Source of the DNA: a virus
Length of the DNA stretch: 60,474 nt
Virus record (IMG/VR): IMGVR_UViG_3300045988_152007
Span: 1 to 60,474 of that record
Strand: one strand, 5' to 3'
The stretch's first letter is position 1, and each line of letters begins with the position of its first letter. The notes beneath the pieces are model-generated. The model made no database searches, was not told where the DNA came from, and saw only the letters and a program-made list of their open reading frames with translations. Shown here in pieces: positions 44,373 through 60,474 of this stretch. The position numbers and the translations under genes were made by a program.

Positions 44373-44379
44373 TCATTTA

Positions 44380-44775: not shown

Positions 44776-44817
44776 AATTTAATGACTCCTTTTATTTTTC
44801 CTTTATTTTATGTATAT

Positions 44818-44846
44818 ATTATATTATTTTATTTTAAAAATTTCAA
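44818..44846 (-). promoter_or_regulatory. sigma70-type promoter TTGAAA-N17-TATAAT (minus strand)
   Basis: Motif family member. Confidence 0.6.
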
Positions 44847-46490: not shown

Positions 46491-46550
46491 GATTATTTAC
46501 TCCCTTTATTTTTTCTATAAATATTTTATAATATTTTTTTATAAAAATAA

Positions 46551-46586
46551 AAAAGGGATAAAGAATCAAATCTTTATCCCTTTTTT
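46551..46586 (-). terminator. hairpin AAAAGGGATAAAGA...TCTTTATCCCTTTTTT
   Basis: Stem plus T-run downstream of gene 46595..47095. Confidence 0.55.
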
Positions 46587-46594
46587 ATCTATGT

Positions 46595-47095: not shown

Positions 47096-47120
47096 TTTAT
47101 ATTACCTCATTTAATATTAT

Positions 47121-47709
47121 TTTATTTATAAATTGTTCCCTTTAACAAATCGGGTAATTCATTATTAAGAACTTCTTTCCACCCAATTATATTACCTTCA
47201 AAACCTTCAAGGTCTTTGAAATTGCCAGTTGGGCAAGTTTGACTAATCTTACTATCTACAACAAGCTCAATTAATTCATCACAAATAATACCGTGAATTA
47301 AATCCCAGTTTTTTGTATGGCGGTCTTGCTTTTCATCAGCTTTAACGACCTTAATCTCTGAACCATCTTCACAAATAAAAATCCATTTTGAACCAATCTT
47401 ACCGAAATACCTTCCAAGAGCACAAGCAGTATAGCCATCATCAGTAGCTAATGTGCCGTTCTCCTAAATGGTTAAATAATTATGAATTAAATCCCATTGA
47501 GGACTATCAGTAGATGTAATATCAGTCCACCATTCAAAGGGTTTATTAGTATGGTCGATTCCGCAATTACAATATTCTGTAGGACCGTATTCGATTTCTG
47601 ACCTGCTTCCGCCATCAGCACTATAACTTTTTATGTTAAAAGCATTTACTGGCATCATCATTAAAGCAACCATAGCGATTACAAGAATGACATTTAAGAA
47701 TTTTCGCAT
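47121..47709 (-). CDS. secreted hypothetical protein (signal peptide), one TAG
   Basis: ORF 47464..47709 (MRKFLNVILVIAMVALMMMPVNA) ends in TAG and continues to TAA ~47121. Confidence 0.5.
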
Positions 47710-47802
47710 ATTAATTCTCCTTCAATATAAAATAAATAACTAGTAAATAATACTATATTTCATATGAAAAGTCAAATTTAATAGCTAAAAAGAATTGACC
47801 AC

Positions 47803-48582
47803 TCAAAAGCGGTCAATATTATTTACAGCATCATCCATTTTATCATGCCAGAGGAAAATATCTTCCAAAGGGTCGATACAATTAAAAAAGATAATATTAT
47901 GCTTATTAATAAATCTATCACAATGATAATGACCAAAGAGCCATACATCATATGTAATCATATTCTTAATTTCTTCAAGCCATTCTTCCATAGAAGTATC
48001 TACGGTAGATTGATCTACTATTGAAAGGAATTTATCAACTGGCCTAAGAGAATAAGGGCAGGTGTGTGATAGTACAAGATCAAAATGCTTATTAGTTTGT
48101 CGAATAAGCATTTCAGCATCAACTTTTTCTTTATTATTTAATTGTTCATCTTCCCACCAAAGCAAATTGTTTTTAAGACGATAATATTTATCAACAGAAT
48201 AAGCACCACCAATAACTAATGTACGATATTCTCTATCTTCGGTTTTAAGATAATAAATCCCGTAATTATCAAAATATCTAATCAGAGGGTGAGTCGGCTC
48301 ATACCATACATTAGCCTGAACATTGCTATCCCAAACACGCTCCATACCTTCAACGTTTTCAGGACGTACTTCATGATTGCCATGCACGCAATAAATAAAA
48401 TATCCAAACTGGCTTGCATATTCTTTCTTCATATTATCTCTGAATGCACTACCAGTATTAAAACCGCAGTCTCCAAGGATAATAATTGCGTAGTCTTTTG
48501 GATTTAAAATTCTAAACATTCTTGCATTAAGCCATGTGAAATCACCATGACAATCGCCTCTAATCAGATAGTCCTTGAACAT
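47803..48582 (-). CDS. calcineurin-like metallophosphoesterase
   Basis: ORF track 259 aa; motifs GDCHGD, GDCG, GNHE. Confidence 0.7.
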   Translation of the reverse strand: MFKDYLIRGDCHGDFTWLNARMFRILNPKDYAIIILGDCGFNTGSAFRDNMKKEYASQFGYFIYCVHGNHEVRPENVEGMERVWDSNVQANVWYEPTHPLIRYFDNYGIYYLKTEDREYRTLVIGGAYSVDKYYRLKNNLLWWEDEQLNNKEKVDAEMLIRQTNKHFDLVLSHTCPYSLRPVDKFLSIVDQSTVDTSMEEWLEEIKNMITYDVWLFGHYHCDRFINKHNIIFFNCIDPLEDIFLWHDKMDDAVNNIDRF

Positions 48583-48595
48583 TGAAGTTCCCTCC

Positions 48596-48787
48596 TTACG
48601 TATTTTCTTCTTTAGCCAGCTCTTCCTTTAATTTTTCTACTTTTTCTATAACTGCACTAAGCACAACAGCTTGAGCCCCAAATCTGGTAAAATGTTCAGT
48701 CAACCATTTACCAAGATCATCAAAATTGTTTTCAATTTCTTCAATATCTCGACTATCAATTTCAATAGTCATATTATCTTCAGACAT
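48596..48787 (-). CDS. small acidic hypothetical protein (63 aa)
   Basis: ORF track. Confidence 0.45.
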   Translation of the reverse strand: MSEDNMTIEIDSRDIEEIENNFDDLGKWLTEHFTRFGAQAVVLSAVIEKVEKLKEELAKEENT

Positions 48788-49595
48788 TTAACATTTCCTT
48801 TACAATTCTTTTTTTCATAATAAGATAAACAATCTTATTCATAAAATCTTCAAGTTCTTCATTACCTTCATCCTTGGTCTTAGAACAATAATCATCAGCT
48901 ACTCTTGTAATATTATTAATAGCAGTATTTGCTACAATTCGTGCAGTTTCAAGATCATAGTGATAATTTTTTACAGCAAGAAGATAATCACCCCTTGGTG
49001 CCTGAAGACAATCAGCATACTTAACCTCATCAATATAACGTCCAAGATACTGTTCGATACGAAGCAAATGCATAAGCTGCTTACTATCATAACCATATGT
49101 ATCAATCAGATGAGTTTTAGTAGGATATCTATGCTCCATTGCATGATATTTTTCCATAGCAATACCCTTCATTGTCTTAACTGCCTTGTAAGGATTATAA
49201 CGTGCAATAGCTTCACGCTCATTAAGCAGTGCCTGCCACTCATTCCAATACACGCTTGATGCCATTTTATAAGGTGTGAAGATACATTCAAGATATGCCA
49301 TATTCTGTTTCTTCAAACAATCAATGAACAAACGAATATCTTTAAAATCAATGTGTTCATCATTAGGAAGAATTTTGGTATAAGACACTGGCTTTTTATT
49401 CAATACAATATCTTCAAATGAAGGAAGAACAATAAGCCGGGTATCTACATCAGACAATTGAGTATCAAGACCATAGTTCTGGCTACCATAAGCCATTAAG
49501 CTAACCCAATTTTCTCCTCTGACATTAACTGCTTCTAAATGAGTTTCTACTTTATCCATAACCCATTTATCTAAATGGTAATTCATAATTATCAA
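48780..49595 (-). CDS. nucleotidyltransferase-fold protein (Pol-beta superfamily)
   Basis: ORF track 271 aa; GS...DVD motif (AYGSQNYGLDTQLSDVDTRLIV). Confidence 0.55.
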   Translation of the reverse strand: MIIMNYHLDKWVMDKVETHLEAVNVRGENWVSLMAYGSQNYGLDTQLSDVDTRLIVLPSFEDIVLNKKPVSYTKILPNDEHIDFKDIRLFIDCLKKQNMAYLECIFTPYKMASSVYWNEWQALLNEREAIARYNPYKAVKTMKGIAMEKYHAMEHRYPTKTHLIDTYGYDSKQLMHLLRIEQYLGRYIDEVKYADCLQAPRGDYLLAVKNYHYDLETARIVANTAINNITRVADDYCSKTKDEGNEELEDFMNKIVYLIMKKRIVKEMLNV

Positions 49596-49599
49596 CTCC

Positions 49600-49845
49600 T
49601 TAAATCATTGAAAACTGTTCATCTTCAAAAATTCCTTCATATACAAATCCAATAGTATCAGAATAAACATTATCAATGGCATCGTATTCTCGCACGTGTG
49701 AATAGCCCCAATAATATCTACTCTCTCCTGCGGCTTTGCGAATAATTTGATTGGCATGTTCAGCATCAAGGGCAGCAACTAGACTAAATCCATGCCACCC
49801 TACCTGTGGTTCAATCAGATACACCTTACATTTATATTCAGTCAT
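49600..49845 (-). CDS. hypothetical protein (81 aa)
   Basis: ORF track. Confidence 0.5.
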   Translation of the reverse strand: MTEYKCKVYLIEPQVGWHGFSLVAALDAEHANQIIRKAAGESRYYWGYSHVREYDAIDNVYSDTIGFVYEGIFEDEQFSMI

Positions 49846-49847
49846 AC

Positions 49848-50078
49848 TTATTCCTCTACAAAATGAATAATTAAATCATAACCTTCTTCCGTTTCAACCA
49901 TTTCATATGGATGATGAAGATCAATTTTATATCCATCTCGCTTTTGAATTTCAACACCTTGAGAACCAATAGCATCAGGGAAAATACGAATCCTATTAGA
50001 AGTATAATTCCAAGAGGAAATAAGAATCATTCCGGCAGCTATAATCAATAGGATTGTTATAACACACTTTTTAATCAT
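49848..50078 (-). CDS. small membrane protein (76 aa)
   Basis: ORF track; hydrophobic N-terminal segment. Confidence 0.5.
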   Translation of the reverse strand: MIKKCVITILLIIAAGMILISSWNYTSNRIRIFPDAIGSQGVEIQKRDGYKIDLHHPYEMVETEEGYDLIIHFVEE

Positions 50079-50316
50079 TTGCAGTCATATCCTTCCATGT
50101 ACAAGTATTAAGCCAGTATCGTGTCTGATTACTACCATCTTTAGAACTCGCCGCTAGCCCCTGACCGATGAGGCCACGCATAACACCTGAAACCCCTTGT
50201 GATGTAATATCAAAATCATACTTACGCTTTGCGAACGCTGAAATTTGCTTTGCAGTAAGAGTGCCGCTTTCTTTAAGAATTTTAATTACCATTTCTTTTT
50301 TTCCCATTACATCCAA
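50071..50316 (-). CDS. hypothetical protein (81 aa)
   Basis: ORF track. Confidence 0.5.
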   Translation of the reverse strand: MDVMGKKEMVIKILKESGTLTAKQISAFAKRKYDFDITSQGVSGVMRGLIGQGLAASSKDGSNQTRYWLNTCTWKDMTAND

Positions 50317-50762
50317 TCCTCGCTTACCCTTTCATTAACCGGTCTGACTACATTAAGTTCAATAGGTTCCCAATTGTAATCAGCCCAGTGAAGCCAATCA
50401 GTTGCTGTCCATTTATTATGTTCTTCAACTAACTTATCTATTTTCTTCATTTGGCAGTTACAATCAATGACAATACGTTCATATTTCTTATATTGTTTCT
50501 TGGCGTCTTTGTATTCAGGATTTTCCTTACCCACCTGAAGGATGGGAAGATATTTATTCATGTCCTGAATTGCTTCATGGCGTTTAGTTTCGTATCGAGC
50601 TTTTTCAGCTTTGAGAGTTTCAAAATGATTATGAATGCTACTTTGCATTAGAGTTGAATGAAACAACTCTTCAAGATAATCATTCAACTTATCTTCAGTA
50701 AGATAACCAAGCTTCTGCTCTTCATAATAAGGACCATATGTTAGTCTATAAATGCGTTCCAT
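50307..50762 (-). CDS. hypothetical protein (151 aa)
   Basis: ORF track. Confidence 0.55.
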   Translation of the reverse strand: MERIYRLTYGPYYEEQKLGYLTEDKLNDYLEELFHSTLMQSSIHNHFETLKAEKARYETKRHEAIQDMNKYLPILQVGKENPEYKDAKKQYKKYERIVIDCNCQMKKIDKLVEEHNKWTATDWLHWADYNWEPIELNVVRPVNERVSEDWM

Positions 50763-50841
50763 ATCTCTCCCATCCTTTCTATATATATTATATCAAATTT
50801 TTTATAAATTTTCGAGTATTCAATTTTGGCAAGAATTTAAA

Positions 50842-52506
50842 CTAAACATAATCATCAGGATAAGTCGCCTTTAGCCGCATCTTGGCATCAGCAATTCTTT
50901 CAAGGGACAGAAATGGCTCCCATACCTTTTTATCTGCCTTGTCAACATCAATATACTGAAAATCGCCCCACAAGTCTGGCTCCTTCGGTGCATCACCAAA
51001 ATCATAATCTTCATAACAATCATCACAGACATCAATGGGATTTCCAACATCACGACGATGCTTACCATTAGGAGTTTTTACTTCAAACATATAGGGAAGA
51101 GCCTGCTTCTTGAAATCATAATCAAGCCATTTAGTTTCTCCGCAACAGCTACAAGTCTGAGTGCGGCCATCTGCACACCAGCTACAATAAGTTGCACCGT
51201 CCCCTTCACAGAACCAAGCATCTTCACTATCAATCCAAGAGCCACAATCATCACACTGGACTTTGCCTTCACAGGTTGCACATACGACTTTATCACATTC
51301 TACAAATGCATCTACATTTCCACTCGGATCAGCTTCATAGCCTTTACCGCAGCACATACATTCAGCTACACCAGAATAGTAAACTTCTACTTCTTTTACT
51401 TCTGGATTGATATAAGCATAATGATTATCATAATAATCATTATACATAGCTCCAGTTCTCATGCGGATATAAACCTGACCAAAATCAGTATCATTGCTCT
51501 GATTCTGCCAAACCTCATACATCTTATCGTCGTAATGCCAGCCCATATTCTGTTCAGCTAACTGCTTAATTTTATTCAGCACATAATCACGCAGATAAAT
51601 ATTGTTATAAGGATACTGCTTAATTTCAGTGATAATATCCTTATTAACAATATAAAGACACCGCCAACGCTTATTACTCCAAGTTCTTTTGTCACGGTCA
51701 ATAGGACAATAAGGATGCTCGGATTCAACATATGCTTCAAGGATGACAGGAGAATTCATCATTTCAACAGTGCCAAGACGATAATCACCGCCCTGATACC
51801 AGTTCATACAACTCTCCCAATCACAAGCATTATCACTCATAGTAAGATAATCAAGCGGATGAATAGAGAGTACAATATCAGCATTAATCATACGATCATT
51901 CAAAACACGCGAATGAAGAATACGAAACTGCTCAAATGCTTCTTTATCCAGCTCAAACCAATCGACAATTTTAGCCATCATTCGCATCAGCTTCATATCA
52001 CTCTTCAACTCAAGCGGCTTCGAAGTATCTGCATGCGGACCACGGCGAATAACAACAGATTTGCGACCCCAATCAAACATATATACATTTTTATTGGCTA
52101 CGAGAGATTCACTATCAAGGCAATGGTCAATCATGCTACAACAATTAACACGTTCATCTTTATCAAGAGTGGTATCCATCCAAGAATAATAAATATTAGT
52201 AATTTGCTCGTAAGAATCAATGAATTTTTTGACGTTTGCTAATTCAGGATTATTATAAATTTCTTCATACATTTCACCGAATTTATCCATCAAATCATCT
52301 CCAGATGCCTGATAGGAAATATGGTCTTCGACCATCAAATTATTACCAAGCAACTCATACAGGTCAGGCTTTTCAGCAGCCCAAAACCGCAGAAGATGAT
52401 TAATTTCATCTACAGTGCAGTAATTATCAGAATGAAGGTACTCTTTAATATAATCATGCAGCAGATTCTTTTCTTCTTCTGGAATGAGTGTCCTCAAATC
52501 TGTCAT
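50842..52506 (-). CDS. paralog family B protein (554 aa)
   Basis: ORF track; SIHPLDYLTMSDNACDWESCMNW motif plus C-terminal CxxC repeats. Confidence 0.7.
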   Translation of the reverse strand: MTDLRTLIPEEEKNLLHDYIKEYLHSDNYCTVDEINHLLRFWAAEKPDLYELLGNNLMVEDHISYQASGDDLMDKFGEMYEEIYNNPELANVKKFIDSYEQITNIYYSWMDTTLDKDERVNCCSMIDHCLDSESLVANKNVYMFDWGRKSVVIRRGPHADTSKPLELKSDMKLMRMMAKIVDWFELDKEAFEQFRILHSRVLNDRMINADIVLSIHPLDYLTMSDNACDWESCMNWYQGGDYRLGTVEMMNSPVILEAYVESEHPYCPIDRDKRTWSNKRWRCLYIVNKDIITEIKQYPYNNIYLRDYVLNKIKQLAEQNMGWHYDDKMYEVWQNQSNDTDFGQVYIRMRTGAMYNDYYDNHYAYINPEVKEVEVYYSGVAECMCCGKGYEADPSGNVDAFVECDKVVCATCEGKVQCDDCGSWIDSEDAWFCEGDGATYCSWCADGRTQTCSCCGETKWLDYDFKKQALPYMFEVKTPNGKHRRDVGNPIDVCDDCYEDYDFGDAPKEPDLWGDFQYIDVDKADKKVWEPFLSLERIADAKMRLKATYPDDYV

Positions 52507-52571
52507 TTTAATTCACCTTTTCCCTTTAATTTATATATATATTTTATAATATTTTTTTATAAAAATAAAAT

Positions 52572-52593
52572 AAGGAGCCTTTAACAAGGCTCC
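52572..52593 (-). terminator. hairpin AGGAGCC-TTTAACAA-GGCTCCT
   Basis: Seen directly; downstream end of gene ..53504. Confidence 0.45.
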
Positions 52594-53504
52594 TATAAAA
52601 GTAAATCATCTATTGTTAAATCTTTATATTTCGTATATGGTATTCTAATTAATGGAATATTATTATCTCTACACCATTGAGTTTTTATATTGTCTCTATA
52701 TTGCATATCATCTATTGACTCTCCCCAATTTTTTGTAGGAGCATCTATAGAATGCTATATTCCATCATATTCAATTAAATATTTATTATCAATAAAAAAA
52801 TCAAATCTTAATTTTTTATTAGTTTTAGGATTAATACAATCATCAAAACTCTTTTCTCTTACATAAGGGATATGATATTCTTCTAATATCTATTGTATTT
52901 TTAATTCTCCATGAGATATTTTTAAACATCCACAAGATTGAGTGTCACCGCTACTTAAATGACTTCCTCTCACTGAAACTATATTACCACAATCACATTG
53001 ACAAATCCAATATTTAATTTTAGGAATTGATTTTTCTGTATCTAATTTTATAACAGTTAATAATCCAAACCTTTTACCTACTAAATTAACAGTAGATGTT
53101 TCAGAAGTTCTTTCTTTCTAATAGCATCCGCAAGATTTAGTATGACCTGTATTTAAATGATTTGTATTTACTATCACTTTATTACCACATTTACATTGAC
53201 ATTCCCATAAGGCACTATTAGGCATACGTCGTAAAACAGTTAAATATCCATAAACTTTTCCAGTTAAATCTTCAGATTGATTAGCCTCTCTTGTTTTTTC
53301 TCTTTGTAAACAACCACAAGACTATGTAGGTTTAGCTCTATTTAAAGAAGCACTTGATATATCAAGTTCATTACCGCAATCGCATTTACAATGCCATAGA
53401 ATACGATTATAACTATTTTTTTTACCCGTATCATATTCTACTAACAATCTACCAAATCTTTTTCCAGTTAAATCTTTCTTTGCTGGCATATAAAAATCCT
53501 CCAT
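52581..53504 (-). CDS. free-standing endonuclease-like protein: three W.C.C.CGN...SCGC zinc-binding modules plus a C-terminal Vsr/DUF559-like EYDG.QH domain; in-frame TAGs; 3' end uncertain
   Basis: ORF 53322..53504 ends in TAG and the frame continues; repeats were hand-translated. Confidence 0.45.
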
Positions 53505-53556
53505 AGTTAAAAAGTAAAATTATCTTCTACACTTTTTAACTATGGAGATAAATTAA

Positions 53557-55173
53557 TTAATTAGTCTTACCCGGAAAATTATTCATCATAAGCATCGGCA
53601 GAAGCCAATCTTTATCACCATCAGCCTTATCCGACATAAGATAGAGCATCATAGGATTAAAACCGGTCATACCATTTGCACCATTCATAAGCAGCATCAT
53701 AGGAAGAATATCTTTCATGGACTTATTATTGTCATCAAGAAGAGTAAACATCCACATATTGCCCAGAGGGTTGTCTTTAGAAGGAGGAGCCATCATATTA
53801 TCAAAAAGGCTTACAATTTTAGTAATAAAACTAAAATTACCAAAAGGAGACTTTGTAGGCATAATAGTCTTCTTTTCACCCATTGCAATATCAATTGCAA
53901 TTACATCACCCTGCTCGGAGAAACCAAAGACAAAACACGGACGTCTGTTGAAAATAATCACATCACCAGCTTCAATGGCGTCAATGCCAACAGGCATCTT
54001 GAAGAACATATTATCAGCCTTAAAGTTGAAAATATCAACATCCATAATCTCGCCATTCTTCTTATCATAAGCCTGATATGTGCCATTAACATTCTTAACC
54101 GCCAGACCATACGGCGACATACGAACAGCATCATTATCCTTAATCGGACCAAAATCAAAATTAAACATCTTCATATTATTTCCTTTACCTTTCACATCAT
54201 CATTGTTTGTTTCAAGTTTATTAATTCTTTCTTCCATTGTATCAATACGGCTAGTTAAACTATCACAGATTGAAACAGTAGCTGTAGTATATGGATTATA
54301 AGTAATACCAGAATCACCATTAACTTCAATAGTTTTCCCTATAACACTTTCGCCAGTAATAGAACTAGCTGTAGAAGCGGTTGGACGATATCCCCAATCT
54401 ATACTAACAGACGCAGTAGAAGCTGTTTCATCTTTAATATCCAATTTAGCTGGATCAATAGGGCTAACATTAATAGTTGCCGTATCAGAAAATGTGGTAT
54501 TTTTTACTTTATCTACATTTTCATATACTTTATTAAGCCATTCAGTATTTTCGTTAATTTTATTATAACAATTATTAAGAATCTCAGTAGTCTTATTAAA
54601 TTCGCAATTGAGCTTCTTTATATCTTTTTTTACATCATTAAAAATCGCTTGACCAGTTGTACCCTCCACCGCGGGATTAAGTGCCCAATTAATAGCACGC
54701 CAACCGATGCCGTCCTCTGAACTATAAGCTCCTAAATTAGTTAAGCCAAATAGCCTATAATCATCTACCTTTTCATCAGCTTCTACCCAATCAAAATAAT
54801 CATAGAACAACATATCGGCCAAATATGTACCAAATGAATAATCATCTTCAGAAGTATTATACTTCTTATCAGTACCTACCATTCTAAAATTATCTGAATC
54901 TTTTAAATACTTAAATTCCTGAATATGGACTATAGTAGGAGCAAGACAGGTATTATTAATCTCAAACCATACTACCTTATAGTCTCCATCCATTAAATGG
55001 AGAACTTTCCAATCAGTATAAAGCAGTTTATTATAAGCTCCGGCTTTAACATTTTTGTTAAAATCATCTAGTAACTTTTCCCAGGCTTCTTTATTATAAA
55101 CTTTGGCATCATAGACTGGACTATAAGTTCTTTTCTTGTCCATCGGCCATATGTCTTTTAAATAAGCTTTCAT
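53557..55173 (-). CDS. hypothetical protein (538 aa) with a Met-rich C-terminus
   Basis: ORF track. Confidence 0.65.
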   Translation of the reverse strand: MKAYLKDIWPMDKKRTYSPVYDAKVYNKEAWEKLLDDFNKNVKAGAYNKLLYTDWKVLHLMDGDYKVVWFEINNTCLAPTIVHIQEFKYLKDSDNFRMVGTDKKYNTSEDDYSFGTYLADMLFYDYFDWVEADEKVDDYRLFGLTNLGAYSSEDGIGWRAINWALNPAVEGTTGQAIFNDVKKDIKKLNCEFNKTTEILNNCYNKINENTEWLNKVYENVDKVKNTTFSDTATINVSPIDPAKLDIKDETASTASVSIDWGYRPTASTASSITGESVIGKTIEVNGDSGITYNPYTTATVSICDSLTSRIDTMEERINKLETNNDDVKGKGNNMKMFNFDFGPIKDNDAVRMSPYGLAVKNVNGTYQAYDKKNGEIMDVDIFNFKADNMFFKMPVGIDAIEAGDVIIFNRRPCFVFGFSEQGDVIAIDIAMGEKKTIMPTKSPFGNFSFITKIVSLFDNMMAPPSKDNPLGNMWMFTLLDDNNKSMKDILPMMLLMNGANGMTGFNPMMLYLMSDKADGDKDWLLPMLMMNNFPGKTN

Positions 55174-55394
55174 CCTCGACTATACATCTCCCATACCATA
55201 TCTTCTTCGGCAGGTGTGATATCCTCAATCCCGCACTCTTCACACATAATATTAAAATTTTCCTCAACATACCATCGAGGATTTTCTTGCATCTTACGTA
55301 CCAGAGTATTAATACATCCAGTACGAGTGTTTACCATTCCAGTACCCTCTGCTTCATTCATGAACAGAAAATAACTATCATCAAAACCAAACAT
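55170..55394 (-). CDS. hypothetical protein (74 aa)
   Basis: ORF track. Confidence 0.5.
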   Translation of the reverse strand: MFGFDDSYFLFMNEAEGTGMVNTRTGCINTLVRKMQENPRWYVEENFNIMCEECGIEDITPAEEDMVWEMYSRG

Positions 55395-55422
55395 ATTAAT
55401 TACTCCTTATCTTTATATATAA

Positions 55423-55451
55423 ATTATATAATATTTTTTTATTTTTTTCAA
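55423..55451 (-). promoter_or_regulatory. sigma70-type promoter TTGAAA-N17-TATAAT (minus strand)
   Basis: Motif family member. Confidence 0.6.
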
Positions 55452-55453
55452 AT

Positions 55454-56047
55454 TTACAAACAAGAAATAGAACCTTCCGGGGTAGTCAATTGTGCAGTTG
55501 CAGTATAATTATATTTAACAAGTTCAACAATACCATCCTCATTAACTACACACTTATAAATATGTTTAAGTTCAGCATCATTTTCAACCGTTTGCTTAAT
55601 AAGCTGGGCACTACTAATTGCCGCCTTACAAATTGCCTCTTGGCTTTCTTCTTTGAGTGTCTGACAATCTGCTTTCATAAGGTCACAAAATTCAAGACCC
55701 TTAAGCAGTTCTGCTTCCTGCATTGCTTTAGTTCTTTTATTTTCCCACCATTGGATAAATTTACGGTATTCCTTATAAGAACTAAAATACACATAAAATT
55801 TACTTTCACCAACAATATTTTTTTTACCAATTTTATAAGAAATGCTAGTATCACTAATACACCATTTATCAGGCTTAATAGCAGAGTATTTCATTACTTC
55901 ATCAAAGGTAAGCTCAACAGTTTTATCATGCCATCCAATGGCTTCCTTTTTAAAACGCTGATAATCTTCCCAATTCTTAAAATAGCTAAATACTATAAAA
56001 CAGATAATAGCAAATACAATAAAAATACCTAAAATAATTAAAAACAT
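55454..56047 (-). CDS. membrane-anchored hypothetical protein (197 aa)
   Basis: ORF track; N-terminal transmembrane helix. Confidence 0.6.
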   Translation of the reverse strand: MFLIILGIFIVFAIICFIVFSYFKNWEDYQRFKKEAIGWHDKTVELTFDEVMKYSAIKPDKWCISDTSISYKIGKKNIVGESKFYVYFSSYKEYRKFIQWWENKRTKAMQEAELLKGLEFCDLMKADCQTLKEESQEAICKAAISSAQLIKQTVENDAELKHIYKCVVNEDGIVELVKYNYTATAQLTTPEGSISCL

Positions 56048-56592
56048 TACTTATTATCCTCCTTCTTCTGTCGCAGATCATGGTCTTCGCCATCATAAAT
56101 TTCACGATATTTAGTAAACAGAGAGCCATCATTATAATAATATCTAATACTATTCCAACCATTATAATGATCAGTCAAATCAGGCCAATCTACAATACGT
56201 GCCTGCCGTTCAAGCTCCTGCTGCGGCACAACTCTATGTCTCTTGGAGTTCCATTCCTTTGAATTTTCTACACTAGCGATAATAACCATAAGCTGGTAGT
56301 TATCAAAATGAGGAAAACGGCTTCTGATTTCTTCTCTCTGTCCAAGAGTCAAACAATTAGTATCAATGATAATATCTGCCTTATCCATCTCTGCACAATG
56401 TACAATCTGATATAATGTCTGCCAAACTTCGAACTTATGACAGCGGTTGCATTCATCACCATTGAAGACAGCATACAATTCATCAGGGTTTACATACCGG
56501 ATGTGATTCATCTTTGCGAAGGATTTCGCGAATGTAGTCTTTCCATTTGCACTCAAGCCGCACATCATATATAGAGTCGCCATCAACTTCAT
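56047..56592 (-). CDS. P-loop NTPase, polynucleotide-kinase/zeta-toxin-like
   Basis: ORF track 181 aa; Walker A GLSANGKTT. Confidence 0.6.
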   Translation of the reverse strand: MKLMATLYMMCGLSANGKTTFAKSFAKMNHIRYVNPDELYAVFNGDECNRCHKFEVWQTLYQIVHCAEMDKADIIIDTNCLTLGQREEIRSRFPHFDNYQLMVIIASVENSKEWNSKRHRVVPQQELERQARIVDWPDLTDHYNGWNSIRYYYNDGSLFTKYREIYDGEDHDLRQKKEDNK

Positions 56593-56911
56593 CTCCTCTC
56601 AGTCTGCTTGCCAATATATATTCTATATAGATAGAATCTACTGTTGGATTTTCTATTTTTTCTATACTAATTACATCTTCTTCAGTAGTAATTACAATAT
56701 AAAAATCATCAAAGCATTTAATTAATGCTTTATACCATTTATGACCATGCCAACACCAATAGTCTTCAAGAATAACTTGACCTGATTTAAGCAGAACATG
56801 GTATTTATGTAATGTGTCTTCTTTTTTAATACGACCCATTAAATAATCCATTTGATTAAATACAAAAGGATTGCCTGGACCAGACATTACCTTGCTCATG
56901 TCAAATTCCAA
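56483..56911 (-). CDS. hypothetical protein (142 aa); 3' part overlaps the next gene by ~110 nt
   Basis: ORF track. Confidence 0.4.
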   Translation of the reverse strand: MEFDMSKVMSGPGNPFVFNQMDYLMGRIKKEDTLHKYHVLLKSGQVILEDYWCWHGHKWYKALIKCFDDFYIVITTEEDVISIEKIENPTVDSIYIEYILASRLRGDEVDGDSIYDVRLECKWKDYIREILRKDESHPVCKP

Positions 56912-57177
56912 TTACTCAATTCAATCCTCTCATTATAACTTTTCTTGTCAGAAATCGGCTCACAAAAAATAACTATTCCATTACGCATCCAATCTGCATA
57001 AACCATATCATCCCAAAGGATTATACGCAAACGATAATAATTCCCATTCTCTTCACTCTGTAAATCAATAGCAATCTTACCATATTTAAGAGCATTAGAA
57101 TGCTTTTCATTAACCATATGTTGATAAACTTCTTCAGCATATGCATCAAATATATCCATCCAATTATCCAACTTCAC
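56896..57177 (-). CDS. hypothetical protein (93 aa)
   Basis: ORF track. Confidence 0.5.
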   Translation of the reverse strand: MKLDNWMDIFDAYAEEVYQHMVNEKHSNALKYGKIAIDLQSEENGNYYRLRIILWDDMVYADWMRNGIVIFCEPISDKKSYNERIELSNWNLT

Positions 57178-57874
57178 TACACCTCGTCAAATAAGTAATT
57201 TTCTGCTTCTGGTAAGTTCCAAGAGACTTAATAGTTCCCTTAATAGTAAGTTCCTTACCAATTTCCCAATTCTTGGCGGCTGTACTCCAGCAGTACAGAT
57301 TCTCATTGGCATCAATAAACGTCATAATATGATTAACACCATAGTAATTTTCTGCTTCAATGTTTTTAATTACTTTTACATCACGTTCAATCTTATCGCC
57401 AACTTCACCCTGATAACGACTATTGCCTTCATCATAAATAAGATTTTCAACTACCTTATTAATAACAGCATTATCTTTCAGAGTGCCGTCGTCATTACCT
57501 ACGAGTTCCCAAGGCAGCTGCACGGGCGTAATACCTTCCGGCACATCGGCAGGAACTTCTTCGGTAGAAACAACATACCACTTGAACGTAGTGTGGAAAC
57601 GGGCATTAGAATGTTCAAACCATTCAAGATTTTCATAAGTATTACCTTTAAACAGGGTAATATATCCATTATCAAAACCAAGAATATGCTTACGATTACC
57701 AGGTTTAATAATTTTTACAGGAGGATAATAGCGGTCATACTCTGACTGGGTGTAGCTCTTGACCTTCTTGACCTTGCCATCCTTGGTCCGCACATCACAA
57801 TAACGCTTGCCATTTTCAATATAAGTATCACGGACAATTTCCAAATCCTGATAAGATTTAGCAACAAGAGCCAT
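57164..57874 (-). CDS. hypothetical protein (236 aa)
   Basis: ORF track. Confidence 0.6.
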   Translation of the reverse strand: MALVAKSYQDLEIVRDTYIENGKRYCDVRTKDGKVKKVKSYTQSEYDRYYPPVKIIKPGNRKHILGFDNGYITLFKGNTYENLEWFEHSNARFHTTFKWYVVSTEEVPADVPEGITPVQLPWELVGNDDGTLKDNAVINKVVENLIYDEGNSRYQGEVGDKIERDVKVIKNIEAENYYGVNHIMTFIDANENLYCWSTAAKNWEIGKELTIKGTIKSLGTYQKQKITYLTRCSEVG

Positions 57875-58068
57875 TATCTGTCACCCTCCTCAAAAAGCTG
57901 CTTATAAAGAATATCAAGAGCCATGTCAATTTCTTCCGCTTCAGCATTGTCAATATACTCATAATTACTTACACAGAGATCAACGACCTTATTATAAGCA
58001 TTGACAACTTCTTCGTTTCTAATCTTGTCCATAGTATCGTCTCCTTTAAAATTCTTTATATCTCTCAT
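57874..58068 (-). CDS. small acidic hypothetical protein (64 aa)
   Basis: ORF track. Confidence 0.45.
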   Translation of the reverse strand: MRDIKNFKGDDTMDKIRNEEVVNAYNKVVDLCVSNYEYIDNAEAEEIDMALDILYKQLFEEGDR

Positions 58069-58111
58069 TTCTTTATATATATATTTTATAATATTTTTTT
58101 ATAAAAATAAA

Positions 58112-58138
58112 AGAGGAGTCTCTTATCAAGACTCCTCT
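58112..58138 (-). terminator. hairpin AGAGGAGTC-TCTTATCAAG-ACTCCTCT
   Basis: Seen directly; overlaps the 3' end of gene 58126..58536. Confidence 0.45.
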
Positions 58139-58536
58139 GTATAATCAATCAATTCAATTTCTGACCAAAATGGCTGCTCATACCAACTTGTCCAAGGATT
58201 ACTCCTATAGAACTGATGAATACGCACTTTTTCATTGAATTCTTTTACTTGAGTATAATACAATTCATTTACACCAACTCTTGAAGTTTCAAGGAAACTA
58301 TCATGGTGTTCTATCTGATAAACAATAACATCTCGTTCGGCTTCTACATTAGCACGGTCAATAGATGCAGTTGCTCTGTGGCATATAAAAGCAATTGTAC
58401 TAAATAATACTACAAGAGCAAGTATAAAGCCAATAGTAAATGGAAGAGCAGCCCAATCACTAAAATTATCACTCAAACATTTTGCAATGATAAAACAAAT
58501 TACGCCGATAACAATAGCCAACAAATACAATAACAT
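58126..58536 (-). CDS. membrane protein (136 aa)
   Basis: ORF track; two hydrophobic helices. Confidence 0.55.
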   Translation of the reverse strand: MLLYLLAIVIGVICFIIAKCLSDNFSDWAALPFTIGFILALVVLFSTIAFICHRATASIDRANVEAERDVIVYQIEHHDSFLETSRVGVNELYYTQVKEFNEKVRIHQFYRSNPWTSWYEQPFWSEIELIDYTEES

Positions 58537-58538
58537 AA

Positions 58539-58841
58539 TTATTCCTCCATTGTTCTGTAACCTTCAACATCTACATCAGCCATATCACTAATGTCGAAAT
58601 CATCATCATCTTCTGAAACATTATAGTCTGCCTTGGCGGCATCAATAAAATCTCCAATAGATGCACCATACCAATCCCAATTGTCAACGCCACCACAGTC
58701 TAATGCTTGAAGTCGCAAACTATCATAGAGCAAATCTTTTAGTTCATCTTTTGGAACAAGGCAATAAATCATATTAATACTTGGTTCCTTTCTTATAGTT
58801 ATAGAAATACAATCCACCAAGGACGACAATAGCAATAACAA
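58539..58841 (-). CDS. acidic hypothetical protein (100 aa)
   Basis: ORF track. Confidence 0.5.
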   Translation of the reverse strand: MLLLLSSLVDCISITIRKEPSINMIYCLVPKDELKDLLYDSLRLQALDCGGVDNWDWYGASIGDFIDAAKADYNVSEDDDDFDISDMADVDVEGYRTMEE

Positions 58842-58861
58842 GAATAATTACGGGGTCCATA

Positions 58862-60019
58862 TTAGTTCTCCTTTTTAAAATCAAAAATTGTTTTTAATTC
58901 TTCTACTTTATCAAGCTGTTCCCAAGGGCTATTACATTCAATACGACCAAAATGACCGAAGCAAGCATAGGGTAAATAGCGAGTATGTTTTAAATCAAAT
59001 TTATGAATAATACTACGCGGTGCAAAATCAAATGTCTGATTAACTGCTTCAAGAATTTCAGCGATAGGTTTCTTTTCTGTACCAAAACAATTAATATTAA
59101 TAGATACAGGTTCTGTCTGCCCAATAATATAAGCAACTTGAATCATACATTTATTACAAACACCAGAAGCTACAAGATTTTTAGCTACATAACGTGCCAT
59201 ATAAGCACCAGACCTATCTACTTTACAGGGCGACTTCCCTGAAAAACATCCCCCACCATGTGGAGCATAACCACCATATGTATCTACGACGATTTTACGT
59301 CCGGTTAATCCAATGTCAGCCGCAGGTCCACCAATTACGAATCTGCCTGTTGGGTTAATATAAAATTTACAATCTTTCTTAATGGCATAACCTTGAAGGG
59401 CAATATTACAAATGTTTGTAATATCGGGTGTTATTTCCTTAATACTATATTTGTCTTTGTGTTGGGCCGATACGACAATTGTATCTACCCCTTCAAAGTT
59501 GCCATCATCATCGTATTGGACAGTTATCTGACATTTGCCGTCAGGTAATGCCCAAGGTAGCAAATCATTTTTATACTTACTAAACATAATGACCGAGATA
59601 TTGTTAGCAAGTTGCTGGGCAATAGGCATATAATTTTCTGTTTCGTTAGTTGCATAACCAAACATCATGCCTTGATCTCCAGCACCATCCCTATCGACAC
59701 CCGCAGCGATGTCAGGGGATTGATTTACTACATTAATAATATATGAACAAGTGTCGCAGTTAAATCCTGCTTCATCATTGTCATAACCAATAAATCTTAA
59801 AGTCTCTCTTGCAATTTCCTGATAAGGAATAGATTGTTCTGTTTTAGCTGTAATCTCTCCCATGATGTGGAAAAGACCTGGACTAATAGTACATTCACAA
59901 GCTACTCGTGCATCAGGGTCAAGCTGGAGGACATAATCCAGAATAGCATCACTTACCTAATCACAAACCTTATCAGGGTGACCGGCAAAAACGCTCTCAC
60001 TGGTAAATAAATAACTCAT
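58862..60019 (-). CDS. metK: S-adenosylmethionine synthetase (MetK), 385 aa, with an in-frame TAG at 59957-59959 at the conserved Gln
   Basis: ORF 58862..59863 carries GAGDQGMMFGYA, GGPAADIGLTGRKIVVDTYGG and GGGCFSGK.P.KVDRSGAY; the upstream frame through the TAG gives [28 protein letters not shown], the MetK N-terminus; GGAGG precedes ATG 60017-60019. Confidence 0.8.
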
Positions 60020-60047
60020 ATAATATTTCCTCCTTTATTATATAAAT

Positions 60048-60076
60048 ATTATATAATATTATTTTTTATTTTTCAA
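60048..60076 (-). promoter_or_regulatory. sigma70-type promoter TTGAAA-N17-TATAAT (minus strand) upstream of metK
   Basis: Motif family member. Confidence 0.6.
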
Positions 60077-60446
60077 TTTTTTCTGCCGATACTAAATAAC
60101 AATATTTATCAACATACTCTTGCTCACTCATATCTGATGGTTTATGAATAAATGCTAAATAATGTTTCAGCCGATCAATAGCTTTATCTACATTAAAATC
60201 TTCAGTAGCAAGATAACTTTCTGTTTCAGTATTACCTTGATAGTCGGCAACGATAATATTCCAGTATTCTTTTTTTCTGTTTTGATTTACTTTTTCTTTA
60301 GTATAATAGCAATGCTCTAAATAATTAACCATTGCCGCAGAATTATCATACTTATGTCCAAAAAAATTTTCAGCAATATCCAATAGAATACGATTAATAA
60401 ATGATTGAGTTATGGTATCTTTATCTATAAAAACTTCTTTTACCAT
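60066..60446 (-). CDS. hypothetical protein (126 aa)
   Basis: ORF track. Confidence 0.55.
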   Translation of the reverse strand: MVKEVFIDKDTITQSFINRILLDIAENFFGHKYDNSAAMVNYLEHCYYTKEKVNQNRKKEYWNIIVADYQGNTETESYLATEDFNVDKAIDRLKHYLAFIHKPSDMSEQEYVDKYCYLVSAEKIEK

Positions 60447-60474
60447 TTCATCTTTTGGTGTATAGAAGTTTAAA

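What the first reader, a model, noticed from the sequence alone, without database searches (positions are those of the whole stretch)
58862..60019. Phage-encoded S-adenosylmethionine synthetase (metK)
Full-length MetK with all signature motifs, its own consensus promoter (60048..60076), and an in-frame TAG at the conserved Gln. A phage-borne SAM synthetase could feed the five radical-SAM enzymes in this window. It could also counter SAM-depleting or SAM-dependent host defences.
Basis: partly seen in the sequence, partly recalled or inferred. Interest (0 to 1): 0.65.

Follow-up and report, generated by a model that had tools for sequence, protein, structure and literature searches.

The report
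Amber-recoded phage SAM synthetase gene
A gut-type bacteriophage that reads the TAG stop codon as glutamine carries its own complete, selectively maintained gene for the enzyme that makes S-adenosylmethionine; this is a real gene, but phage copies of it are already known.

Summary
Window 58862..60019 (-) encodes a full-length 385-aa MetK: three Pfam domains, and TIGR01034 at 476 bits against a cut-off of 309. It is 51% identical to E. coli MetK, and all catalytic and ligand residues I checked are present. Codon 21 is TAG. It aligns with Gln in E. coli and in 40 of 45 homologues, and 70%-identical relatives have CAA or CAG there.

The window is a TAG-to-Gln recoded phage. Coding density rises from 55% to about 85% under that code, and a tRNA-CUA lies at 2466..2540. 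The promoter at 60076..60048 belongs to a 10-copy family (0.18 copies expected by chance). dN/dS against relatives is 0.08-0.14.

Some claims need correcting:
- I find four canonical radical-SAM genes, not five.
- One 99%-conserved Asp (D263) is Ser in this allele.
- Raising SAM would not counter SAM-dependent defences.

Phage metK is already known. It occurs in 138 GenBank phage records and 490 IMG/VR stretches, it has a PHROG family, and it is described in the literature on phage auxiliary metabolic genes.

The function here is inferred: SAM supply for phage SAM-using enzymes, with translation dependent on amber suppression.

Side finding: close relatives carry a homing-endonuclease intein in the GGGxFSGK motif of this gene. 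The window allele lacks the intein and has a unique cluster of substitutions at that site.

The parts
60048..60076 (-). Sigma-70/sigma-A-type promoter of the metK operon (TTGAAA, 17-nt A-rich spacer, TATAAT)
   Evidence: It matches 11 of 12 consensus positions. The exact pattern occurs 10 times in the window, all on the coding strand, against 0.18 expected. Eight copies share the spacer and the 'atatata' tail and precede genes, tRNAs or the ROOL RNA. The 63 nt upstream of the ATG are 100% identical in L001-L004 and L084, even where the upstream gene differs. No transcription start has been mapped.
60029..60034 (-). Shine-Dalgarno sequence AGGAGG, 9 nt before the ATG
   Evidence: Read directly from the sequence.
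58862..60019 (-). metK coding sequence, 385 codons plus TAA (methionine adenosyltransferase)
   Evidence: Family, structure and residue checks are. It matches phrog_1569 at 392 bits. dN/dS is 0.08-0.14 against L001, L002, L084 and the L003 exteins.
59957..59959 (-). In-frame TAG, codon 21, read as Gln
   Evidence: It aligns with Gln21 of E. coli MetK. The codon is CAA in L081 and CAG in L082/L083 (70%-identical relatives), and TAG in L001-L004 and L084. The 20 codons before it include catalytic His14, Asp16 and Lys17 and are unchanged at the protein level in all the close (93-97% nt) relatives L001-L004 and L084, and nearly so (17-18 of 20) in the 70% relatives.
59231..59248 (-). Equivalent of the intein insertion site (between 59249 and 59248), followed by a patch of substitutions private to the window allele (GGG|CFSGKSPC)
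   Evidence: L003 and L004 carry a 322-aa intein exactly here. Eight of the 23 positions where the window differs from all five relatives fall within 18 nt 3' of the insertion point (p about 1.5e-6). The patch includes D263S and S265C.
58774..58860 (-). 28-codon ORF for a small hydrophobic peptide; its ATG lies 1 nt after the metK stop
   Evidence: Read from the sequence. It has no family hit. Whether it is expressed is unknown.
58539..58772 (-). T7 Gp5.9-like RecBCD-inhibitor homologue (77 aa), co-oriented downstream of metK
   Evidence: PF25708 at 39.9 bits against a cut-off of 24.5. phrog_6234 'host RecBCD nuclease inhibitor', E = 1.6e-10. The same gene follows metK in L001-L004, L084 and the 70% relative L081.
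58126..58536 (-). 136-aa predicted membrane protein, last gene before the terminator
   Evidence: ORF. It has no significant family hit.
58112..58138 (-). Intrinsic-terminator-like hairpin (11-bp stem followed by a T-run) that would end the metK operon
2466..2540 (-). Suppressor tRNA with anticodon CUA, needed in trans to read codon 21
   Evidence: Found by ARAGORN and by Rfam tRNA at 49.2 bits. It is preceded by TTGATT-17-TATAAT at about 2700..2672. Its G73 discriminator and 3' end match those of the window's tRNA-Gln(UUG).
38904..40244 (-). Candidate SAM consumer: radical SAM/SPASM peptide maturase of the CXXX-repeat target family. Its Cys-rich target protein is at 38282..38932
   Evidence: TIGR04115 at 431 bits against a cut-off of 350. 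The target matches TIGR04114. Pfam Radical_SAM scores 29.7 bits. The gene has 7 in-frame TAGs.
11352..16681 (-). Candidate SAM consumers: three further CX3CX2C radical-SAM genes at 11352..12722, 12722..14209 and 14669..16681. The last is fused to a GT2 glycosyltransferase. All lie in a 17-25% GC, TAG-rich cassette

Best explanation
The gene encodes a working methionine adenosyltransferase carried by a TAG-to-Gln recoded, tRNA-rich phage. Relatives have genomes of about 105-145 kb. The host is probably a Bacillota gut bacterium.

The gene is transcribed from its own sigma-A-type phage promoter. It is the first gene of a short operon: metK, a 28-codon ORF, a Gp5.9-like RecBCD inhibitor, a membrane protein, then a terminator.

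Codon 21 is UAG. A full-length enzyme can therefore be made only once the phage's own tRNA-CUA inserts Gln. Without suppression the product is a 20-residue peptide.

The enzyme makes SAM from methionine and ATP in the infected cell. This keeps or raises the supply for the phage's SAM-using enzymes. Those are four radical-SAM enzymes in TAG-rich late modules of this window and, in the lineage, an Eco57I-family N6-adenine DNA methyltransferase.

Shown:
- gene identity and intact catalytic residues;
- purifying selection;
- the recoded genetic code;
- membership of a recurrent promoter family;
- conserved synteny.

Inferred:
- enzymatic activity of this allele;
- timing of expression;
- which enzymes use the SAM.
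For: Identity:
- Family models, solved structures and residue checks all agree.

Selection:
- dN/dS is 0.08-0.14 against five relatives.
- The N-terminal 20 codons before the TAG are conserved.

Genetic code:
- Non-overlapping ORF coverage is 55% under code 11 and 83% with TAG read through.
- A tRNA-CUA is present.
- TAG in this lineage corresponds to CAA or CAG at codon 21 in 70% relatives.
- TAG makes up 37% of Gln-type codons in the 7-40.5 kb block and 8.7% in the 40.5-60.5 kb block (Fisher p = 3e-11).
- TAG read as Gln has been validated by proteomics in other gut phages (PMC9523058).

Promoter:
- 10 exact copies against 0.18 expected, all on the coding strand.
- The upstream block is conserved in relatives.

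Phage origin:
- Four IMG/VR contigs of 30-145 kb carry the same gene order.
- The window has tail-fibre and homing-endonuclease PHROG hits.

SAM users:
- Four radical-SAM genes lie in the window.
- A close relative has an Eco57I-family methyltransferase (PF07669, 76.8 bits) 6.7 kb beyond the window start.

Precedent:
- 138 GenBank phage records match, as do 490 IMG/VR stretches.
- Viral metK has been described as an auxiliary metabolic gene under purifying selection (bioRxiv 10.1101/2021.01.05.425418).
- A prophage metK with phenotypic effects is reported in PMC8223999.
Against: - No activity data exist.
- This allele has Ser in place of an Asp next to catalytic Lys262. That Asp is conserved in 75 of 76 other viral MetKs. 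It also has Cys258 and Cys265, inside a patch of private substitutions.
- Several residues conserved at 90% or more in the cellular-type homologues compared (41 sequences, mostly unnamed metagenomic ones) differ throughout this phage clade: E12A, R149Y, R158L, P346T and Y354F.
- The radical-SAM genes are 19-48 kb away. No MetK-to-radical-SAM linkage is seen in 76 other viral loci, although that test is insensitive.
- The suppressor tRNA has a similar promoter type, so any delay imposed by the TAG may be short.
- Conservation of the TAG among alleles only 4-7% divergent is not evidence of selection for it.
Confidence: 0.6

Rival explanations
1. The main client is DNA methylation. The phage MetK keeps SAM high so that a phage (or host) methyltransferase can fully methylate replicating phage DNA and protect it from restriction.
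For: - In Streptococcus phage Javan630, metK is directly followed by an adenine-specific methyltransferase.
- Nine of 76 other MetK-bearing IMG/VR loci have a homologue of that methyltransferase within 10 kb of metK; in those I checked (L033, L077) it lies 0.1-1.3 kb upstream.
- Kieft et al. note phages that carry both metK and dcm (10.1101/2021.01.05.425418).
- A close relative of this phage encodes an Eco57I-family N6A methyltransferase.
Against: - No methyltransferase motif is found in the 60-kb window.
- In the relative, the methyltransferase lies about 65 kb from metK, in a different module.
- This explanation does not exclude radical-SAM clients.
Confidence: 0.2
2. metK is part of an early host-takeover or anti-defence operon. 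Its role would be to replace or bypass host SAM synthesis, or to manipulate a SAM-sensing host process, rather than to serve phage enzymes.
For: - It shares a promoter-to-terminator unit with a Gp5.9-like RecBCD inhibitor.
- That pairing is kept in a 70%-identical relative.
- The gene lies in the TAG-poor block of small ORFs typical of early regions.
Against: - No mechanism is known by which more SAM defeats a defence.
- SAM is a cofactor of Type I R-M and BREX, and T3 counters them by removing SAM (10.1101/2023.02.27.530186).
- Early phage operons are mosaics, so adjacency is weak evidence.
- The TAG at codon 21 argues against immediate-early translation.
Confidence: 0.12
3. The gene is inactive or decaying in this genome. 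The TAG would be a genuine stop, or the D263S patch would kill activity, and the locus would persist mainly as a landing site for a selfish intein.
For: - The internal TAG is present.
- An Asp conserved in 75 of 76 other viral MetKs is replaced.
- A cluster of private substitutions lies beside an intein homing site.
Against: - dN/dS is 0.08-0.14 over the whole gene, including the codons before the TAG.
- The genome-wide evidence for TAG read as Gln is strong.
- All catalytic residues are kept.
- Position 263 is Cys in a few other MetKs, so it is not strictly essential.
- Inteins typically persist in functionally important host proteins (established knowledge of inteins).
Confidence: 0.06
4. 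The gene is a bacterial gene that reached the contig by misassembly or belongs to host DNA, and is not a phage gene.
For: Short ENA contigs encode chimeric proteins whose first 127 residues are identical to this MetK and whose remainder resembles cellular-type MetKs (P0005-P0007). This shows that assemblers can join metK genes at the conserved GAGDQG..NET region.
Against: - The same gene, promoter and neighbours occur on four independent IMG/VR contigs of 30-145 kb and on one ENA contig.
- The best cellular homologues are only 51-53% identical.
- The gene uses the phage's TAG codon.
Confidence: 0.02

Closest known systems
Bacterial MetK / methionine adenosyltransferase (E. coli MetK, PDB 1FUG, 7LL3, 7OCK; TIGR01034)
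   Same: - It has the same three-domain fold family and aligns full-length at 51% identity.
- All the catalytic, metal-binding and substrate-binding residues I checked are kept.
- The GHPDK and GAGDQG motifs are intact.
   Different: - It is encoded by a phage and needs amber suppression at codon 21.
- It has a 5-residue deletion in the loop after DR (E. coli ADPLE).
- Its clade-specific replacements at otherwise conserved sites are E12A, R149Y, R158L, P346T and Y354F.
- The second signature motif reads GGGCFSGKS in this allele.
Phage and prophage metK genes already on record (Streptococcus Javan and 12/111phiA prophages, Faecalibacterium phage FP_Brigit, Erysipelothrix phi1605; phrog_1569; 'viral metK' auxiliary metabolic genes of Kieft et al.)
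   Same: - It is a virus-borne, full-length MetK under purifying selection.
- It sits outside the structural module (10.1101/2021.01.05.425418; PMC8223999).
   Different: - It is only 41-50% identical to those proteins.
- The host genome here is a large recoded phage; those are 35-60 kb phages that I take to use the standard code (not checked here).
- None of the 76 other viral MetK loci examined has an in-frame stop.
- The neighbour is a Gp5.9-like gene rather than a DNA methyltransferase or replication genes.
TAG-to-Gln (code 15) recoded gut phages: crAss-like phages, Lak, phAss-1 and the Borges et al. clades
   Same: - It has a suppressor tRNA-CUA.
- TAG is concentrated in structural and late genes and rare in the presumed early block.
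- A homing endonuclease gene inside the TAG-poor block is itself TAG-rich (10.1101/2021.08.26.457843; PMC10607447; PMC9523058).
   Different: - No nucleotide match exists to any GenBank phage record.
- The lineage is seen only in IMG/VR, ENA and Logan assemblies.
- A recoded metK was not mentioned in the two of those papers whose text I searched (PMC10607447 for metK/adenosylmethionine; the Borges preprint only for other terms).
Phage T3 SAM lyase (SAMase)
   Same: It is a phage gene that acts on the host SAM pool.
   Different: The direction is opposite. T3 destroys SAM and inhibits MetK to disarm Type I R-M and BREX (10.1101/2023.02.27.530186; PDB 8BB1 appears). This gene makes SAM.
Homing-endonuclease inteins (PI-SceI, TliVMA and PhoVMA inteins, PI-PfuI). 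Relevant to the alleles in L003 and L004, not to the window gene itself
   Same: - The relatives' 322-aa insert starts with Cys and ends with Asn, and is followed by Cys.
- It has a LAGLIDADG-like block.
- In an AlphaFold model of a homologue, it superposes on solved inteins with E-values from 6e-14 to 3e-8.
   Different: - The host protein is MetK. I found no paper that links inteins with MetK.
- The insertion is in the P-loop-like GGGxFSGK motif.
- Sequence relatives of the intein sit in P-loop motifs (GxxG|..|SGKS) of other, unannotated proteins that I take to be terminase-like.
- It gives no Pfam hit.

Membership tests
MetK / methionine adenosyltransferase (EC 2.5.1.6) | Three-domain architecture (S-AdoMet_synt_N, _M, _C), each domain covered end to end | tested here: met
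   PF00438 covers residues 3-102, PF02772 residues 111-227 and PF02773 residues 229-368. All score far above their gathering cut-offs.
MetK / methionine adenosyltransferase (EC 2.5.1.6) | Score above the curated equivalog threshold | tested here: met
   TIGR01034 scores 475.8 bits against a cut-off of 309.4, matching profile positions 1-376 of 377.
MetK / methionine adenosyltransferase (EC 2.5.1.6) | Catalytic, metal-binding and substrate-binding residues. The E. coli numbering (His14, Asp16, Lys17, Glu42, Glu55, Gln98, Asp118, Lys165, Phe230, Asp238, Arg244, Lys245, Lys265, Lys269, Asp271) and the list itself come from my knowledge of the E. coli structural and mutagenesis literature | tested here: met
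   All are identical in a global alignment to E. coli MetK. They are invariant in a 45-sequence alignment. H14, D16, K262, K266 and D268 are identical to all 76 other viral MetKs.
MetK / methionine adenosyltransferase (EC 2.5.1.6) | The two classical signature motifs: GAGDQGxxxGY and G-G-G-[ASC]-F-S-x-K-[DE]. The patterns are quoted from memory of PROSITE | tested here: inconclusive
   The first motif is intact (GAGDQGMMFGY). The second reads GGGCFSGKS. Cys at position 258 occurs in 13 of 45 homologues. The final Asp is Ser here only; it is D in 41 of 45 homologues and in 75 of 76 other viral MetKs.
MetK / methionine adenosyltransferase (EC 2.5.1.6) | Makes SAM from methionine and ATP; forms a dimer or tetramer with the active site at the subunit interface | not testable with these tools
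   This needs an enzyme assay or complementation.
TAG-to-Gln (code 15) recoded phage | Reading TAG as sense restores long ORFs across the genome | tested here: met
   Non-overlapping ORF coverage is 55% under code 11, 56% with TGA read through and 83% with TAG read through. The longest ORF grows from 593 to 877 aa.
TAG-to-Gln (code 15) recoded phage | A phage-encoded suppressor tRNA with anticodon CUA | tested here: met
   Found at 2466..2540 (-) by ARAGORN and by the Rfam tRNA model.
TAG-to-Gln (code 15) recoded phage | TAG positions correspond to Gln in homologues | tested here: met
   Tested for metK only. The position is Gln in E. coli and in 40 of 45 homologues, and the codon is CAA or CAG in 70% relatives. 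Other genes were not examined.
TAG-to-Gln (code 15) recoded phage | Recoded codons are concentrated in late or structural genes | tested here: met
   There are 12.1 TAG per 1000 codons in the 7-40.5 kb block (tail fibres, radical-SAM and glycosyltransferase cassette). The 40.5-60.5 kb block has 2.3 per 1000.
Sigma-70/sigma-A-type promoter | -35 and -10 hexamers with 17-nt spacing, in an intergenic position, upstream of a Shine-Dalgarno sequence and ATG | tested here: met
   TTGAAA-17-TATAAT matches 11 of 12 positions. The -10 hexamer ends 13 nt before the AGGAGG.
Sigma-70/sigma-A-type promoter | More than chance: recurrence or conservation | tested here: met
   The loose scan alone is at chance level (57 sites against 53.5 expected). 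The exact pattern occurs 10 times against 0.18 expected, all on the coding strand. The element is identical in five relatives.
Sigma-70/sigma-A-type promoter | A mapped transcription start, or polymerase binding | not testable with these tools
   This needs 5' RNA-seq or in vitro transcription.
Intein-bearing metK allele | An in-frame insertion in the GGGxFSGK motif with Cys1, a terminal Asn, a +1 Cys and a HINT plus LAGLIDADG fold | tested here: not met
   The window gene is uninterrupted. The feature is met by the alleles in L003 and L004 and by homologues P0122-P0126.

The most novel reading that the evidence does not exclude
The single UAG at codon 21 acts as a timing gate. MetK would be made only after the phage's tRNA-CUA has switched the infected cell to the recoded code. 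The extra SAM would then arrive together with the TAG-rich late genes that consume it: four radical-SAM enzymes and the glycosyltransferase cassette.

Support:
- In the TAG-poor block, four of the 13 TAGs sit within the first 7% of their genes: metK codon 21, and codons 5, 19 and 23 in three other genes. The probability is 0.01 including the homing-endonuclease gene and 0.001 excluding it, but the test is post hoc.

Limits:
- It extends the regulatory model of Borges et al. from lysis and structural genes to a metabolic gene.
- Nothing here measures timing.
Probability: 0.2. Interest if true: 0.55.

Novelty: new member of a known kind. Interest (0 to 1): 0.3.

Why it matters
On its own the finding matters only modestly.
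- It adds a well-supported example of a phage carrying SAM synthesis.
- It is a clean, checkable case of TAG read as Gln in a universally conserved enzyme. That makes it useful for annotation pipelines that still truncate such genes.

If the SAM supply is really tied to the phage's radical-SAM peptide maturases and glycosyltransferase cassette, it would show a phage provisioning a cofactor for its own post-translational chemistry.

Two by-products may be worth more than the gene itself:
- a family of homing-endonuclease inteins that target the P-loop-like motif of MetK, with an apparently resistant intein-free allele in this window;
- a 10-copy promoter family that also drives tRNAs and a ROOL RNA.

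Tried and rejected
- Megablast of window 40000..60474 against 50,697 GenBank phage records gave no match, so no annotated relative could be used.
- tblastn with the CXXX-repeat maturase found only distant radical-SAM genes (35% identity or less), in jumbo phages and in unannotated human-faecal 'Bacteriophage sp.' contigs. It found no relative of this phage.
- The scan of 185,579 species genomes found nothing closer than 53%. So there is no prophage copy and no host assignment. The best hits are Bacillota MAGs, which only hints at the host.
- Pfam on the intein insert gave no family. The PDB sequence search gave one weak hit (E = 0.79) to an archaeal cell-division-control protein construct that I take to be a CDC21 intein. 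The fold search was needed to settle the question.
- tblastn of the four radical-SAM proteins against 76 other MetK-bearing viral loci gave no hit. This is an insensitive test, so absence is weak evidence.
- Three paralogous Cys-rich proteins (7057..7932, 9308..10240, 10251..10934; CX3CX3C in two of them) were considered as the missing 'fifth radical SAM'. They have no CX3CX2C and no Pfam or NCBIfam hit, so they were not counted.
- I first read Cys258 as a relic of intein loss. I weakened that reading because Cys is a natural variant there, seen in 13 of 45 homologues. Within the close clade, however, it occurs only in the intein-bearing alleles and the window.
- Conservation of the TAG in the close relatives was rejected as evidence of selection, because their divergence is too low (dS 0.15-0.31).
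- Two literature searches for an intein in MetK or SAM synthetase found nothing relevant.
[quoted passage not shown] contradict that statement.
Full report
**Observation**

The minus strand of window 58862..60019 holds a 386-codon frame. It runs from ATG (60019..60017) to TAA (58864..58862) and has one internal stop, TAG at codon 21 (59959..59957). With that codon read as Gln:
- The 385-aa protein matches all three MetK Pfam domains end to end.
- It matches the NCBIfam equivalog TIGR01034 at 475.8 bits against a cut-off of 309.4.
- It matches E. coli MetK structures at E = 4e-115 over residues 3-378.

A global alignment to E. coli MetK gives 51% identity. The residues I know to be involved in catalysis, metal binding and substrate binding are all identical. 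These are His14, Asp16, Lys17, Glu42, Glu55, Gln98, Asp118, Lys165, Phe230, Asp238, Arg244, Lys245, Lys265, Lys269 and Asp271.

There is one caveat. The second signature motif reads GGGCFSGKS. The final Asp is D in 41 of 45 homologues and in 75 of 76 other viral MetKs, and this allele alone has Ser.

**Is the TAG really Gln?**

Reading TAG as sense raises non-overlapping ORF coverage of the window from 55% to 83%. Reading TGA through does nothing.

A tRNA with anticodon CUA lies at 2466..2540. It has the same G73 discriminator and 3' end as the window's tRNA-Gln(UUG).

For metK itself:
- The TAG aligns with Gln21 of E. coli (DQISD), and with Gln in 40 of 45 homologues.
- Two independent relatives at 70% protein identity have CAA (L081) and CAG (L082, L083) at exactly that codon.
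- The close relatives (L001-L004, L084; 93-96% nucleotide identity for the uninterrupted alleles L001 and L002) keep TAG.
- The 20 codons before the TAG contain the GHPDK motif. They are unchanged at protein level in all the close relatives L001-L004 and L084, and nearly so (17-18 of 20) in the 70% relatives. That makes sense only if translation continues through the TAG.
- dN/dS between the window gene and five relatives is 0.08-0.14.

**Promoter**

The stated site (60076..60048) is TTGAAA-17-TATAAT. It is followed by AGGAGG, and the ATG lies 9 nt after that.

A loose consensus scan of this AT-rich region is at chance level (57 sites against 53.5 expected). The exact pattern, however, occurs 10 times in the window against 0.18 expected, always on the coding strand. 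Eight copies share an A-rich spacer and an 'atatata' tail. They sit just upstream of genes, tRNA genes or the ROOL RNA.

The 63 nt upstream of the metK ATG are identical in five relatives. This includes three relatives in which the gene further upstream is different. So the claim that metK has its own promoter is well supported as sequence evidence. No transcription start has been mapped.

**Context**

All genes run on the minus strand. After metK come:
- a 28-codon hydrophobic ORF;
- a 77-aa homologue of the T7 Gp5.9 RecBCD inhibitor (PF25708 at 39.9 bits; phrog_6234);
- a 136-aa membrane protein;
- a strong terminator-like hairpin at 58138..58112.

The metK-Gp5.9 pair is kept even in the 70% relative L081.

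Upstream of the window, as seen in relatives, lies a run of small TAG-free ORFs and an RNA ligase. This looks like a typical early region.

TAG makes up 8.7% of Gln-type codons in the 40.5-60.5 kb block. In the 7-40.5 kb block, which holds tail-fibre genes and the radical-SAM and glycosyltransferase cassette, it makes up 37%.

Near-identical genes with the same gene order sit on IMG/VR contigs of 30-145 kb. The best cellular MetKs are only 51-53% identical and come from Bacillota MAGs. The gene is therefore phage-borne and has long been separate from cellular copies.

**SAM users**

I find four ORFs with CX3CX2C and radical-SAM family hits, not five:
- 38904..40244. This is a TIGR04115 CXXX-repeat peptide maturase (431 bits), next to its Cys-rich target at 38282..38932.
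- 11352..12722.
- 12722..14209.
- 14669..16681, which is fused to a GT2 glycosyltransferase.

The window holds no DNA methyltransferase motif. A close relative, however, encodes an Eco57I-family N6-adenine methyltransferase 6.7 kb beyond the window start.

Across 76 other MetK-bearing viral loci, none has a homologue of these radical-SAM genes nearby. Nine have an adenine methyltransferase homologue within 10 kb of metK, as annotated in Streptococcus phage Javan630.

**Mechanism**

The best-supported account is as follows.
- The gene encodes a functional auxiliary MetK.
- It is transcribed from a phage sigma-A-type promoter.
- It can be translated in full only when the phage tRNA-CUA is available.
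- It sustains SAM for the phage's SAM-dependent enzymes.

Which enzymes are the real clients is inferred, not shown. The candidates are the radical-SAM maturases and glycosyl-modifying enzymes, the methyltransferase, or both.

It runs opposite to the T3 precedent, in which the phage removes SAM to disable Type I R-M and BREX (10.1101/2023.02.27.530186). Its only support is the shared operon with a RecBCD-inhibitor homologue.

**Comparison with what is known**

Phage metK is established:
- 138 GenBank phage records match.
- 490 IMG/VR stretches match.
- A PHROG family (phrog_1569) matches at 392 bits.
- Viral metK has been described as an auxiliary metabolic gene with conserved motifs, under purifying selection (10.1101/2021.01.05.425418).
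- A prophage metK has been studied experimentally (PMC8223999).

Code-15 phages with suppressor tRNAs are also established (10.1101/2021.08.26.457843, PMC9523058, PMC10607447).

What is particular here is the combination. None of the 76 other viral MetK loci I examined has an in-frame stop, and this lineage has no GenBank relative. I therefore class it as a new member of a known kind, of modest interest.

**Side finding followed up: an intein in relatives' metK**

In L003 and L004 the orthologous metK is interrupted by a 322-codon in-frame insert, placed exactly between GGG and CFSGK.
- The insert begins with Cys, ends with Asn and is followed by Cys.
- It has a LAGLIDADG-like block (RLQVAFCADGT).
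- Homologues (30-57% identical) occur in other MetKs at two registers: GGG|CFSGK and GGGAM|CGKD.
- Homologues also occur in P-loop motifs (GAAG|..|SGKS) of other, unannotated proteins that I take to be terminase-like.
- An AlphaFold model of one homologue (mean pLDDT 80, about 90 over the insert) matches solved homing-endonuclease inteins at E-values from 6e-14 to 3e-8. These are the TliVMA intein, the PhoVMA intein, PI-SceI and PI-PfuI. The flanks of the model match MetK.

The window allele has no intein, but it shows two related features.
- Cys258 is otherwise seen in this clade only in the intein-bearing alleles.
- Eight of its 23 private substitutions fall within 18 nt 3' of the insertion point (p about 1.5e-6). 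These include D263S and S265C.

That pattern is what a homing-site variant resistant to the intein endonuclease would look like, but cleavage has not been tested. I found no paper linking inteins with MetK.

**Verdict**

The novelty is low to moderate.

Noticed in passing
L003 10772..11737 and L004 10772..11737 (relatives of the window gene); equivalent site in the window between 59249 and 59248: A 322-aa homing-endonuclease intein is inserted in the GGG|CFSGK motif of metK in two close relatives. Homologous inteins occur in other MetKs at two registers, and in P-loop motifs of other, unannotated proteins that I take to be terminase-like. The fold search confirms a HINT plus LAGLIDADG intein. 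I found no literature on a MetK intein.
   Followed up: yes
window 59231..59248 (-): The window's intein-free allele has a dense patch of private substitutions immediately 3' of the intein insertion point (8 of 23; p about 1.5e-6). The patch includes D263S at a position that is Asp in 75 of 76 other viral MetKs. It may be a homing-endonuclease-resistant target site.
   Followed up: partly
window 3430..4023 (-): A full-length ROOL RNA (Rfam RF03087, 323 bits against a gathering score of 99). It lies directly downstream of a copy of the phage promoter family (4088..4060).
   Followed up: no
window 1417..1529 (-): A RAGATH-33 RNA (RF03102, 139 bits against a gathering score of 120).
   Followed up: no
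window 4060..4088, 6048..6076, 7032..7060, 33901..33929, 37191..37219, 44818..44846, 55423..55451, 60048..60076 (all -): A family of near-identical promoters (TTGAAA, A-rich 17-nt spacer, TATAAT, then atatata). They precede protein genes, tRNA genes and the ROOL RNA. There are 10 exact pattern matches against 0.18 expected.
   Followed up: partly
window 37015..37159 (-) and 33372..33442 (-): Two tRNA matches found by Rfam but not by ARAGORN. The first spans 145 nt, so it carries an insertion of about 70 nt (a possible intron). It lies just downstream of a promoter copy.
   Followed up: no
window 38282..40244 (-): A radical SAM/SPASM maturase of the CXXX-repeat target family (TIGR04115, 431 bits), paired with a 216-aa protein whose C-terminal half consists of Cys-x3 repeats (TIGR04114). 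Both are phage-encoded and TAG-recoded.
   Followed up: partly
window 7057..16681 (-): A very low-GC (17-25%), TAG-rich cassette downstream of the tail-fibre genes. It holds three radical-SAM genes (one fused to GT2), a GT8-like glycosyltransferase, and three paralogous Cys-rich proteins (CX3CX3C in two of them) with no family assignment.
   Followed up: partly
window 58539..58772 (-): A homologue of the T7 Gp5.9 RecBCD inhibitor lies immediately downstream of metK. The pairing is conserved in relatives down to 70% MetK identity.
   Followed up: partly
window genes 53557..55194, 43385..44212, 40929..42356, 40231..40512 and metK: In the TAG-poor block, the first or only TAG sits very near the 5' end of several genes (codons 5, 19, 23, 15 and 21). 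Four of the 13 TAGs fall within the first 7% of gene length (p = 0.01, post hoc).
   Followed up: partly
window 52581..53504 (-), 6192..6839, 31140..31769, 32385..33053 (-): Homing-endonuclease genes (HNH type and GIY-YIG type) are scattered through the window. The one inside the TAG-poor block has 5 TAGs. This echoes the observation of Borges et al. that endonuclease genes in early regions are recoded.
   Followed up: no
window 40929..42356, 44847..46490, 50788..52506 (-): Three large paralogous proteins share an HPLDY(L/M)(S/T)(L/M)S(D/E)N core (the latter two continue ..W.SCMNW) and C-terminal Cys-rich zinc-ribbon-like repeats. They give no Pfam hit; the one tested against PHROGs (44847..46490) also gave none.
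   Followed up: no
proteins P0005, P0006, P0007 (short ENA contigs): These are chimeric MetKs. Their first 127 residues are identical to the phage protein, and the remainder resembles cellular-type MetKs. The junction is at the conserved GAGDQG..NET region. They may be assembly chimeras or the result of recombination.
   Followed up: no
L167 16100..17882 (contig IMGVR_UViG_3300045988_164919, about 6-8 kb beyond the window start): An Eco57I-family N6-adenine DNA methyltransferase (PF07669, 76.8 bits). It is preceded by an overlapping 203-aa ORF of unknown family, which may be a phage-borne restriction-modification pair or an orphan methylase.
   Followed up: partly
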